Below are positions 34,301-37,300 of a DNA stretch of 64,000 nt, piece by piece. The stretch's first letter is position 1; the number at the start of each line of letters is the position of its first letter. The stretch lies in NCBI RefSeq assembly GCF_041886205.1, contig NZ_CP169029.1, one strand, 5' to 3'. A program made the position numbers. This DNA is from Escherichia coli. GTDB lineage: Bacteria; Pseudomonadota; Gammaproteobacteria; Enterobacterales; Enterobacteriaceae.

Positions 34301-37300
34301 AAGCGCAGCCGTTTTACGTTAACTCCCCGTATGGCATTACGCTTGCCCACAACGGCAATCTGACCAACGCCCACGAGTTGCGTAAAAAACTGTTTGAAGA
34401 AAAACGCCGCCACATCAACACCACTTCCGACTCGGAAATTCTGCTTAATATCTTCGCCAGCGAGCTGGATAACTTCCGCCACTACCCGCTGGAAGCCGAC
34501 AACATTTTCGCCGCCATCGCTGCTACAAACCGCTTAATCCGCGGCGCGTATGCCTGTGTGGCGATGATTATCGGCCACGGTATGGTTGCTTTCCGCGATC
34601 CTAACGGTATTCGTCCGCTGGTACTGGGAAAACGTGATATTGACGAGAACCGTACAGAATATATGGTCGCTTCCGAAAGCGTTGCGCTCGATACGCTGGG
34701 CTTTGATTTCCTGCGTGACGTCGCGCCGGGTGAAGCGATTTACATCACTGAAGAAGGGCAGTTGTTTACCCGTCAATGTGCTGACAATCCGGTCAGCAAT
34801 CCGTGCCTGTTTGAGTATGTATACTTTGCTCGCCCGGACTCGTTCATCGACAAAATTTCCGTTTACAGCGCGCGTGTGAATATGGGCACGAAACTGGGCG
34901 AGAAAATTGCCCGCGAATGGGAAGATCTGGATATCGACGTGGTGATCCCGATCCCAGAAACCTCGTGCGATATCGCGTTGGAAATTGCCCGAATTCTGGG
35001 CAAACCGTACCGCCAGGGCTTTGTTAAAAACCGCTATGTTGGTCGTACCTTCATCATGCCGGGTCAGCAACTGCGTCGTAAGTCCGTGCGCCGTAAACTG
35101 AACGCCAACCGCGCCGAGTTCCGTGATAAAAACGTCCTGCTGGTCGACGACTCCATCGTCCGTGGCACCACTTCTGAGCAGATTATCGAGATGGCACGCG
35201 AAGCCGGAGCGAAGAAAGTGTACCTCGCTTCTGCGGCACCGGAAATTCGCTTCCCGAACGTTTACGGTATTGATATGCCGAGCGCTACGGAACTGATCGC
35301 TCACGGTCGCGAAGTAGATGAAATTCGCCAGATCATCGGTGCTGACGGGTTGATTTTCCAGGATCTGAACGATCTGATCGAAGCCGTTCGCGCTGAAAAC
35401 CCGGATATCCAGCAGTTTGAATGCTCGGTGTTCAACGGCGTCTACGTCACCAAAGATGTTGATCAGGGCTACCTCGATTTCCTCGATACGTTACGTAATG
35501 ATGACGCCAAAGCAGTGCAACGTCAGAACGAAGTGGAAAATCTCGAAATGCATAACGAAGGATGATGCCTTCGCTGAGGGTGCCGGTCTGGCACCCTGAC
35601 TTGCAACTCCCGCCGAAATCCTGCAAAGTCTGCCTGCAAGTCTGACAGGGCAACTATTTATGAAACGACTCATTGTAGGCATCAGCGGTGCCAGCGGCGC
35701 GATTTATGGCGTGCGCTTATTACAGGTTCTGCGCGATGTCACAGATATCGAAACGCATCTGGTGATGAGCCAGGCAGCGCGCCAGACCTTATCCCTCGAA
35801 ACGGATTTTTCTCTGCGCGAAGTGCAGGCATTAGCCGATGTCACGCACGATGCGCGCGATATTGCCGCCAGCATCTCTTCCGGTTCTTTCCAGACGCTGG
35901 GGATGGTGATTTTACCCTGTTCAATCAAAACCCTTTCCGGCATTGTCCATAGCTATACCGATGGTTTACTGACCCGTGCGGCAGATGTGGTGCTGAAAGA
36001 GCGTCGCCCGTTGGTGCTCTGCGTGCGTGAAACACCATTGCACTTAGGCCATCTGCGTTTAATGACTCAGGCGGCAGAAATCGGTGCGGTGATTATGCCT
36101 CCCGTTCCGGCGTTTTATCATCGCCCACAATCCCTTGATGATGTGATAAATCAGACGGTTAATCGTGTTCTTGACCAGTTTGCGATAACCCTTCCTGAAG
36201 ATCTCTTTGCCCGCTGGCAGGGCGCATAACTCCGCTGTTGCCCTGTTTCAGGGCAATTTTGCAACCGCGATCAAATCCTCGACATTTTGTTTCTGCCATT
36301 CAATCGAAACGCTGCGATTCAACCGCTATACCTGCTATCTTCAACTTCAGGACAATAATGCAACGTCTTATTAACATATTTAACGTTGAATGTTACTGTT
36401 GTCGTCAAGATGGCATAAGACCTGCATGAAAGAGCCTGCAAACACACAACACAATACACAACATAAAAAAGCCATTTTCACTTGAGGGTTATGTATGAAG
36501 AAGTCGATTCTCGCTCTGTCTTTGTTAGTCGGTCTCTCCACAGCGGCTTCCAGCTATGCGGCGCTACCGGAGACGGTACGTATCGGAACCGATACCACCT
36601 ACGCACCGTTCTCATCGAAAGATGCTAAAGGTGATTTTGTTGGCTTTGATATCGATCTCGGTAACGAGATGTGCAAACGGATGCAGGTGAAATGTACCTG
36701 GGTTGCCAGTGACTTTGACGCGCTGATCCCCTCACTGAAAGCGAAAAAAATCGACGCTATTATTTCGTCGCTTTCCATTACCGATAAACGTCAGCAGGAG
36801 ATTGCCTTCTCCGACAAGCTGTACGCCGCAGATTCTCGTTTGATTGCGGCCAAAGGTTCACCGATTCAGCCAACGCTGGATTCACTGAAAGGTAAACATG
36901 TTGGTGTGCTGCAGGGATCAACCCAGGAAGCTTACGCTAACGAGACCTGGCGTAGTAAAGGCGTGGATGTGGTGGCCTATGCCAACCAGGATTTGGTCTA
37001 TTCCGATCTGGCTGCAGGACGTCTGGATGCTGCGTTACAAGATGAAGTTGCTGCCAGCGAAGGATTCCTCAAGCAACCTGCTGGTAAAGATTTCGCCTTT
37101 GCTGGCTCATCAGTAAAAGACAAAAAATACTTCGGTGATGGCACCGGTGTAGGGCTACGTAAAGATGATGCTGAACTGACGGCTGCCTTCAATAAGGCGC
37201 TTGGCGAGCTGCGTCAGGACGGCACCTACGACAAGATGGCGAAAAAGTATTTCGACTTTAATGTCTACGGTGACTGATACGTCGCTGGGAAGCTGTACCT

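What the first reader, a model, noticed from the sequence alone, without database searches (positions are those of the whole stretch)
36411..36426. sigma54 -24/-12 promoter upstream of argT
TGGCAT-N5-CTGCA has the invariant GG and GC dinucleotides exactly 10 nt apart and lies about 70 nt upstream of the argT start. This is consistent with nitrogen (NtrC) control of the Lys/Arg/Orn binding protein. Upstream enhancer sites are expected in 36240-36380 but I could not assign them confidently by eye.
Basis: partly seen in the sequence, partly recalled or inferred. Interest (0 to 1): 0.3.

Follow-up and report, generated by a model that had tools for sequence, protein, structure and literature searches.

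The report
Known sigma-54 promoter of argT

Summary
The 16-mer TGGCATAAGACCTGCA is at 36411-36426 (+), with GG and GC separated by 10 nt and its 3' end 69 nt before the argT ATG (36495). The window is E. coli. The ubiX-argT spacer is base-for-base identical to K-12 MG1655, so the K-12 literature applies directly.

This exact 17-mer (ATGGCATAAGACCTGCA) is sigma-54 ChIP-seq site OS22 (argT) in Bonocora 2015. The same 18-mer is the Salmonella argT sigma-54 site. NtrC ChIP-seq gives a weak peak on it. It is already known.

On sequence alone the match is not above chance: 13.3 bits, with about 3.5 equal or better hits expected per shuffled window. Context and conservation make it convincing: all 81 enterobacterial loci keep TGGCAY-N6-TGCW 40-79 nt before the argT ATG.

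Two refinements:
- **Enhancer.** No NtrC consensus site lies in 36240-36380. Sites at about -221 and -190 occur in 50 of 56 loci from other genera, but in only 1 of 25 Escherichia, Citrobacter and Salmonella loci. The only perfect NtrC site in the window is 37336-37352, 0.9 kb downstream.
- **Second role.** Published data place the motif at +6 to +22 of a sigma-70 promoter that bound sigma-54 holoenzyme represses.

Interest is low.

The parts
36410..36426 (+). sigma-54 -24/-12 promoter element ATGGCATAAGACCTGCA (GG at 36412-13, GC at 36424-25). This is argTp.
   Evidence: Sequence and pattern hit. PWM score 13.26 bits. The identical 17-mer is ChIP-seq site OS22 in K-12. All 81 enterobacterial loci keep TGGCAY-N6-TGCW (alignment).
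36437..36437 (+). Predicted sigma-54 transcription start, 12 nt after the C of the GC. It gives a 58-nt 5' UTR.
   Evidence: Inferred from geometry. It matches the 'distance 58' that Bonocora 2015 list for argT. I did not find a mapped 5' end in any paper I could read.
36439..36464 (+). C/A-rich stretch of the 5' UTR, the target of the GcvB sRNA R1 seed.
   Evidence: argT is listed as a verified (Salmonella) or conserved (E. coli) R1 target. K-12 GcvB nt about 63-92 pairs continuously with 36437-36463. Duplex energy is -57.6 kcal/mol against -33.5 +/- 3.9 for shuffled UTRs.
36495..37277 (+). argT coding sequence (lysine/arginine/ornithine periplasmic binding protein, 260 aa).
   Evidence: ORF. 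RefSeq annotation of 100%-identical E. coli DNA. K-12 layout.
36371..36399 (+). Probable overlapping sigma-70 promoter: -35 TTAACA (36371-76), 17-nt spacer, TG (36391-92), -10 TACTGT (36394-99). Start is near 36405.
   Evidence: Schaefer 2015 Table S3 places the sigma-54 motif at +6 to +22 of an active sigma-70 start, which puts +1 near 36405. The hexamer assignment is my own reading of the sequence. It falls below the 9/12 cut-off of the simple scan.
36238..36263 (+). ubiX terminator-like hairpin followed by TTTT. It contains the palindrome TGCCCTGTTTCAGGGCA (36239-36255, centre -190), a 3-mismatch remnant of an NtrC site.
   Evidence: Fold of -13 to -15 kcal/mol, z = -2.8. It has 3 mismatches to TGCACY-N5-GGTGCA. 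The homologous position carries near-consensus NtrC sites in Klebsiella and Raoultella.
36210..36226 (+). Position homologous to the -221 NtrC site of other genera, in the last codons of ubiX. It is degenerate here (CCCGCTGGCAGGGCGCA, 4 mismatches).
37336..37352 (+). Perfect NtrC consensus site TGCACTATCGTGGTGCA in the argT-hisJ spacer, +907 from the predicted argTp start. It is a candidate remote enhancer.
   Evidence: It is the only 0-mismatch hit in the 64 kb window. It coincides with the strong NtrC ChIP-seq peak assigned to hisJQMP (23.7-fold, coordinates converted). A site is present at +840 to +980 in 77 of 81 loci.
36258..36386 (+). Three phylogenetically conserved blocks between the hairpin and the promoter: 36258-36290, 36312-36341 and 36359-36386. 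The third holds the proposed -35.
   Evidence: Conservation track and multi-genus alignment. The function of the first two blocks is unassigned.

Best explanation
This is argTp, the known sigma-54 (RpoN) promoter of E. coli argT.

- **Closed complex.** RNA polymerase with sigma-54 binds the -24 GG / -12 GC element at 36410-36426 as a stable closed complex.
- **Activation.** Under nitrogen limitation, phosphorylated NtrC contacts it by DNA looping. ATP hydrolysis opens the promoter, and transcription starts near 36437.
- **Transcript.** The mRNA has a 58-nt leader. Its C/A-rich stretch is the pairing site for the GcvB sRNA.
- **Nitrogen excess.** The idle closed complex sits at +6 to +22 of an overlapping sigma-70 promoter (start near 36405) and lowers its output about four-fold.

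Shown by published experiments on identical sequence: sigma-54 occupancy, an NtrC ChIP signal, up-regulation in N starvation, and sigma-54-dependent repression of the sigma-70 transcript. Shown here: the motif, its conservation, and the absence of upstream NtrC consensus sites. Inferred: the exact sigma-54 start point, the sigma-70 hexamers, and which NtrC sites act as the enhancer.
For: - The motif is present with canonical spacing.
- The spacer is identical to K-12 MG1655, and the locus is ubiX-argT-hisJQMP.
- sigma-54 ChIP-seq site OS22 has the identical 17-mer, and the predicted start is 58 nt before argT.
- RpoN holoenzyme gSELEX gives a peak in the argT/ubiX spacer.
- An NtrC ChIP-seq peak lies at argT in N-starved cells, and all 21 listed transcription units were up-regulated.
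- Salmonella has the identical 18-mer, ChIP-chip binding and 3.5-fold rpoN-dependent expression, and lists argT among four experimentally shown sigma-54 operons.
- A review-type statement says argT is sigma-54/NtrC-dependent.
- argTp-gfp was the strongest of the sigma-54 promoters tested.
- All 81 enterobacterial loci keep the element while its immediate flanks vary.
- It is present once in 5,423 of 5,426 complete E. coli genomes.
Against: - The PWM score is modest and not above chance for a 64 kb window.
- EcoCyc still listed the promoter as 'predicted' in 2015.
- I found no mapped sigma-54 5' end.
- No NtrC consensus site with 2 or fewer mismatches lies upstream in E. coli.
- NtrC-only gSELEX reports no peak in this spacer.
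- The NtrC ChIP peak is weak, at 5.4-fold.
- argT is not strictly rpoN-dependent, because a sigma-70 promoter also serves it.
Confidence: 0.93

Rival explanations
1. In E. coli the site works mainly as a repressive sigma-54 binding site. It would act as a roadblock or competitor for the overlapping sigma-70 promoter rather than as a productive promoter.
For: - argT expression in cells expressing rpoN is 23% of that in the vector control lacking it.
- The motif lies at +6 to +22 of the sigma-70 start, and E-sigma-54 lowers sigma-70 initiation in vitro.
- Shimada 2021 propose 'repressive' RpoN promoters and list this spacer as bound by holoenzyme alone.
- No upstream NtrC consensus exists in E. 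coli.
Against: - argT is in the NtrC regulon by expression analysis and is up-regulated in N starvation.
- In Salmonella a promiscuous activator raises argT 3.5-fold in an rpoN-dependent way.
- Other genera keep NtrC sites at a fixed distance from the same element, which argues that it is an activatable promoter.
- The two roles are not exclusive. I accept repression as an added function.
Confidence: 0.05
2. Chance match with no function.
For: About 3.5 PWM hits as good or better are expected by chance per 64 kb window. GG-N10-GC alone is uninformative.
Against: - Published in vivo and in vitro sigma-54 occupancy on identical sequence.
- The element is kept in all 81 loci across about 25 genera, amid variable flanks.
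- Position and orientation relative to argT are correct.
Confidence: 0.01
3. It is a sigma-54 promoter, but a bacterial enhancer-binding protein other than NtrC activates it in E. coli.
For: No recognisable NtrC site lies within 450 bp upstream. NtrC gSELEX gives no peak there.
Against: - An NtrC ChIP-seq peak lies on the promoter region.
- The literature consistently assigns NtrC.
- Orthologous promoters carry NtrC consensus sites.
- A perfect NtrC site lies 0.9 kb downstream.
Confidence: 0.02

Closest known systems
E. coli K-12 argTp (sigma-54 ChIP-seq site OS22 of Bonocora et al. 2015; listed as a predicted sigma-54 promoter in EcoCyc)
   Same: The whole ubiX-argT spacer has identical sequence. 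The 17-mer is the same, as is the predicted start 58 nt before argT.
   Different: Nothing. It is the same element in another E. coli strain.
Salmonella Typhimurium argT promoter ('argTr'; Ames & Nikaido 1985, as cited by Samuels 2013)
   Same: The 18-mer TGGCATAAGACCTGCATG is identical. It drives the same gene, is assigned to NtrC, and is bound by sigma-54.
   Different: The flanking spacer sequence differs. I could not read the original 1985 and 1988 papers, so I do not know where they placed the NtrC site.
glnAp2, the archetypal NtrC/sigma-54 promoter
   Same: It has a -24/-12 element, NtrC~P activation by looping, and an adjacent or overlapping sigma-70 promoter (the glnAp1/glnAp2 arrangement described).
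   Different: From my own knowledge, glnAp2 has two strong NtrC sites about 32 bp apart within 150 bp upstream. E. coli argTp has no upstream site with 2 or fewer mismatches. Other genera have a similarly spaced pair (31 bp), but further away at -221 and -190.
'Class II' repressive sigma-54 sites (Schaefer et al. 2015: argT, mdfA, topA)
   Same: The sigma-54 motif lies just downstream of an active sigma-70 start, and expression is higher without rpoN. argT is itself a listed member.
   Different: Unlike mdfA or topA, argT is also an accepted NtrC-activated gene, so the site has both roles.

Membership tests
sigma-54 (RpoN) dependent promoter | GG at -24 and GC at -12, separated by exactly 10 nt | tested here: met
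   GG is at 36412-13 and GC at 36424-25.
sigma-54 (RpoN) dependent promoter | Extended match to TGGCAC-N5-TTGCW within the range of bona fide sites | tested here: met
   A leave-one-out PWM from 134 ChIP-seq sites gives 13.26 bits. That is the 31st percentile of real sites and the 2nd best hit in the window. It is not above chance on its own, since 3.5 such hits are expected.
sigma-54 (RpoN) dependent promoter | Intergenic, oriented toward a downstream gene, with a leader of typical length | tested here: met
   The site lies in the 265-bp ubiX-argT spacer on the same strand as argT. The predicted leader is 58 nt. Leaders are 40-79 nt in 81 loci.
sigma-54 (RpoN) dependent promoter | Occupancy by sigma-54 holoenzyme in vivo or in vitro | not testable with these tools
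   Published for identical sequence: ChIP-seq at 12-fold above threshold, gSELEX at 61% and 55%, and Salmonella ChIP-chip. Sequence identity to K-12 was verified.
sigma-54 (RpoN) dependent promoter | Transcription from the site requires rpoN and an enhancer-binding protein | not testable with these tools
   Published evidence: Salmonella argT is 3.5-fold higher in WT than delta-rpoN with a constitutive activator. E. coli argT is in the NtrC regulon by expression analysis, citing Zimmer 2000. I found no single-promoter mutational test or mapped sigma-54 5' end. Under N excess, rpoN lowers argT expression.
sigma-54 (RpoN) dependent promoter | Evolutionary conservation of the -24/-12 element relative to its flanks | tested here: met
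   All 81 loci keep TGGCAY-N6-TGCW, while the 20 nt on either side are poorly conserved. Bonocora's own PSSM conservation table agrees.
NtrC-activated promoter | NtrC binding sites (TGCACY-N5-GGTGCA) within about 100-250 bp upstream | tested here: not met
   No site with 2 or fewer mismatches lies between -450 and 0 in the window or in any of 7 Escherichia loci. The best is 3 mismatches at 36239-36255. The feature is met in 50 of 56 loci of other genera, at -221 and/or -190.
NtrC-activated promoter | NtrC bound at or near the promoter in nitrogen-starved cells | not testable with these tools
   Published: a weak ChIP-seq peak (5.4-fold) maps to about 36367-36447. A strong peak (23.7-fold) maps to about 37287-37367 and covers the perfect site at 37336-37352. 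NtrC-only gSELEX lists neither spacer.
NtrC-activated promoter | IHF site between enhancer and promoter (common but not obligatory) | tested here: not met
   No match to WATCAANNNNTTR with 1 or fewer mismatches in 36230-36440 on either strand.

The most novel reading that the evidence does not exclude
Enhancer turnover at a conserved sigma-54 promoter. The ancestral pair of NtrC sites at -221 and -190 is kept in 50 of 56 loci from Enterobacter, Klebsiella, Raoultella and other genera. It has decayed in the Escherichia-Citrobacter-Salmonella group (1 of 25 loci), leaving only a terminator-like hairpin. In E. coli argTp would then be activated from the strong, universally conserved NtrC site or sites 0.9 kb downstream in the argT-hisJ spacer, or only at high NtrC~P acting without nearby sites. 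That spacer's own sigma-54-like motif has lost its -12 GC in Escherichia. Meanwhile the -24/-12 element has taken on a second job as a brake on a sigma-70 promoter.
Probability: 0.25. Interest if true: 0.35.

Novelty: already known. Interest (0 to 1): 0.08.

Why it matters
As a promoter call it adds nothing new. argTp is a documented member of the E. coli and Salmonella sigma-54/NtrC regulon and has already been used as an engineering part.

The check is still a useful calibration. A correct call was made from a motif that a proper PWM shows is not above chance, so context carried the inference.

The open point is where the enhancer is. Upstream NtrC sites are present in most Enterobacteriaceae but lost in the E. 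coli, Salmonella and Citrobacter group. A perfect NtrC site sits downstream of the gene. If that site serves argTp, it would be a natural example of enhancer relocation in bacteria.

Tried and rejected
- **Bare GG-N10-GC as evidence.** Rejected, because it occurs at chance frequency.
Only a 3-mismatch palindrome at 36239-36255, a chance-level match (101 such hits against 106 expected in the window). It also lacks A4, A7, T11 and T14, the positions the gSELEX logo marks as most conserved.
- **IHF consensus scan of the spacer.** Nothing with 1 or fewer mismatches.
- **Simple sigma-70 scan.** No 9/12 match in the spacer. The published sigma-70 start is served by weaker hexamers that I assigned by eye.
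- **Rfam scan of 36100-37600.** No RNA family at E <= 1.
- **Other sigma-54-like hits in the window.** 56033-56048 (-) and 30122-30138 (+) are both inside ORFs and absent from the published ChIP lists. I did not pursue them.
- **Papers I could not obtain.** Ames & Nikaido 1985, the id I guessed for Reitzer & Schneider 2001, Sharma 2007 and Zimmer 2000 are not held. Schmitz 1988 was not looked up. I therefore do not know where the Salmonella work placed its NtrC site.
- **ArgP/Lrp literature search.** It gave no explanation for the conserved blocks.

Full report
**1. Observation**

The sequence TGGCATAAGACCTGCA is at 36411-36426 on the + strand. GG is at 36412-13 and GC at 36424-25, with ten bases between them. 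This is the canonical sigma-54 -24/-12 geometry.

The downstream ORF 36495-37277 (260 aa) is argT. The 1.8-kb stretch around it is 100% identical to annotated ubiX-argT DNA of E. coli and is found in 5,425 of 5,426 complete E. coli genomes. The gene order cvpA-purF-ubiX-argT-hisJQMP matches K-12.

**2. Is it more than chance?**

- GG-N10-GC alone is uninformative: 683 hits against 644 +/- 28 in shuffles.
- TGGCAY-N5-YTGCW occurs twice against 0.40 expected.
- I built a position weight matrix from the 134 other published sigma-54 ChIP-seq motifs of E. coli (tables read, argT left out).
- The argT site scores 13.26 bits and is the second best of all positions on both strands.
- That score is only the 31st percentile of real sites. 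Dinucleotide-preserving shuffles of the window yield 3.5 +/- 2.1 hits at least as good.

The motif alone would not justify the call. Position and orientation, conservation, and published experiments do.

**3. Conservation**

I fetched 80 loci encoding ArgT orthologues from one genome per species across Enterobacteriaceae.

- The strict pattern is present in 52 of the 80 fetched loci, 66-105 nt before the ATG.
- Allowing any base at the position before TGC, all 81 sequences (the 80 loci plus the window) keep TGGCAY-N6-TGCW. Predicted leaders are 40-79 nt.
- In the alignment, GG, GC and their spacing are invariant, while about 20 nt on either side vary freely.
- Within E. coli, the 66-nt stretch around the motif occurs exactly once in 5,423 of 5,426 complete genomes, at 95% identity or better.
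- Bonocora et al.'s own supplementary conservation table shows the same pattern.

**4. What is already published**

The ubiX-argT spacer (36230-36497) has no difference from K-12 MG1655, so K-12 data transfer directly.

- Bonocora et al. 2015 list sigma-54 ChIP-seq site OS22 with motif ATGGCATAAGACCTGCA, downstream gene argT, a predicted start 58 nt before the gene, and the flag 'predicted in EcoCyc'. In window coordinates the motif centre is 36418 and the predicted start is 36437, which is exactly 58 nt before 36495.
- Shimada et al. 2021 find an RpoN-holoenzyme gSELEX peak in the argT/ubiX spacer, with and without NtrC.
- Brown et al. 2014 report an NtrC ChIP-seq peak at argT in nitrogen-starved cells (5.4-fold). 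They state that all 21 listed transcription units are up-regulated, and cite Zimmer 2000 for argT.
- In Salmonella LT2 the identical 18-mer TGGCATAAGACCTGCATG precedes argT. It is bound in ChIP-chip and gives 3.5-fold WT/delta-rpoN expression. argT is named as one of four operons experimentally shown to be sigma-54-dependent, citing Ames & Nikaido 1985.
- argTp has been used as an engineering part and was the strongest of the sigma-54 promoters tested.

The finding is therefore correct and already known.

**5. A second role of the same site**

Schaefer et al. 2015 place this motif at +6 to +22 of an active sigma-70 start site ('class II'). They report argT expression in cells expressing rpoN at 23% of that in the vector control lacking it. 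They also show that sigma-54 lowers sigma-70 initiation at argT in vitro.

That puts a sigma-70 start near 36405. Reading the sequence, the best-fitting elements are:

| Element | Sequence | Coordinates |
|---|---|---|
| -35 | TTAACA | 36371-76 |
| spacer | 17 nt | 36377-93 |
| extended TG | TG | 36391-92 |
| -10 | TACTGT | 36394-99 |

This assignment is mine. It falls below the 9/12 threshold of the simple scan, which found nothing in the spacer.

Under nitrogen excess argT is expressed without sigma-54, and more strongly.

**6. The enhancer**

- Scanning the whole window for TGCACY-N5-GGTGCA gives one perfect site, at 37336-37352. That is in the argT-hisJ spacer, 907 nt downstream of the predicted argTp start.
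- Upstream of argT there is only a 3-mismatch palindrome at 36239-36255, and 3-mismatch matches occur at chance frequency.
- That palindrome is the stem of a hairpin (-13 to -15 kcal/mol) followed by TTTT, directly after the ubiX stop. It is most simply a terminator.

I anchored all 81 sequences on the predicted start. NtrC-like sites with 2 or fewer mismatches recur at -221 and -190, 31 bp apart.

| Group | Loci with a site at -235 to -175 |
|---|---|
| Other genera (Enterobacter, Klebsiella, Raoultella, Trabulsiella, Pluralibacter, Pseudocitrobacter and others) | 50 of 56 |
| Escherichia | 0 of 7 |
| Salmonella | 0 of 2 |
| Citrobacter | 1 of 16 |

The background rate is 0.0037 per 61-bp window. 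In contrast, 77 of 81 sequences have a site at +840 to +980.

The strong published NtrC ChIP peak (23.7-fold, assigned to hisJQMP) maps onto the perfect site. The argT peak is weak. NtrC-only gSELEX lists neither spacer. No IHF consensus is present in the spacer.

I conclude that the E. coli promoter lacks a recognisable local enhancer. How NtrC reaches it is not settled by anything I could compute or read. The candidates are weak cryptic sites, the downstream site acting by looping, or high NtrC~P concentration. I could not obtain the 1985 Salmonella paper, and I did not look up Schmitz 1988.

**7. The leader**

The C/A-rich stretch 36439-36464 is the known type of target for the G/U-rich R1 region of GcvB. 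argT is listed as a verified (Salmonella) and conserved (E. coli) R1 target.

K-12 GcvB pairs continuously with 36437-36463. The computed duplex is far more stable than with shuffled leaders: -57.6 against -33.5 +/- 3.9 kcal/mol. No Rfam family matches the region.

**8. Verdict**

- Novelty: already known.
- Interest is low.

The only open thread is the enhancer architecture and its apparent turnover in the E. coli, Salmonella and Citrobacter group. I rate it a modest, testable curiosity.

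Noticed in passing
window 37336-37352 (flanking half-sites 37307-37335): This is the only perfect NtrC consensus site in the 64 kb window (TGCACTATCGTGGTGCA). It lies in the argT-hisJ spacer and coincides with the strong published NtrC ChIP-seq peak. A homologous site is present in 77 of 81 enterobacterial loci.
   Followed up: partly
window 37434-37449: A sigma-54-like motif, TGGCACGATAAGTGTA, lies 64 nt before the hisJ ATG. TGGCAC is invariant in all 81 loci, but the -12 varies. Citrobacter has the consensus CTGCA, Salmonella has CCGCA, and Escherichia has GTGTA with the GC lost. There is no hisJ site in the main sigma-54 ChIP-seq tables, and hisJ was not found in the held supplements.
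   Followed up: partly
L028, L029, L051 and about 47 other loci, at -221 and -190 from the predicted argT start: A pair of near-consensus NtrC sites 31 bp apart lies upstream of argT in most Enterobacteriaceae genera. The -221 site overlaps the last codons and stop of ubiX. The pair is absent from Escherichia, Salmonella and nearly all Citrobacter.
   Followed up: yes
window 36258-36290 and 36312-36341: Two blocks (TTTTGCAACCGCGATCAAATCCTCGACATTT and CTGCGATTC...CCTGCTATCTTC) are conserved across about 25 genera. They lie between the ubiX hairpin and the argT promoters. They match neither the NtrC nor the IHF consensus scanned here, and the simple sigma-70 scan found no promoter-like site there. 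Their function is unknown.
   Followed up: partly
window 36371-36405: An overlapping sigma-70 promoter has its start near 36405, per Schaefer 2015. The candidate elements are TTAACA-17-TACTGT with an extended TG. The -35 is conserved across genera, but the -10 region is not.
   Followed up: partly
window 36439-36464: The C/A-rich argT leader is complementary to the GcvB R1 seed. Pairing begins at the predicted sigma-54 start.
   Followed up: yes
window 56033-56048 (- strand): This is the second strict sigma-54 pattern hit, TGGCACCTGACCTGCT. It lies in sense orientation inside a 405-aa ORF, probably alaA/yfbQ by position. It is not in the published sigma-54 ChIP-seq lists I could read.
   Followed up: partly
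window 30122-30138 (+ strand): This is the top sigma-54 PWM hit in the window (TTGGCATTATTTTTGTT, 14.0 bits), but it lacks the -12 GC. It lies inside a 219-aa ORF, probably dedA, 138 nt before the next ORF. It is not in the published ChIP lists.
   Followed up: partly
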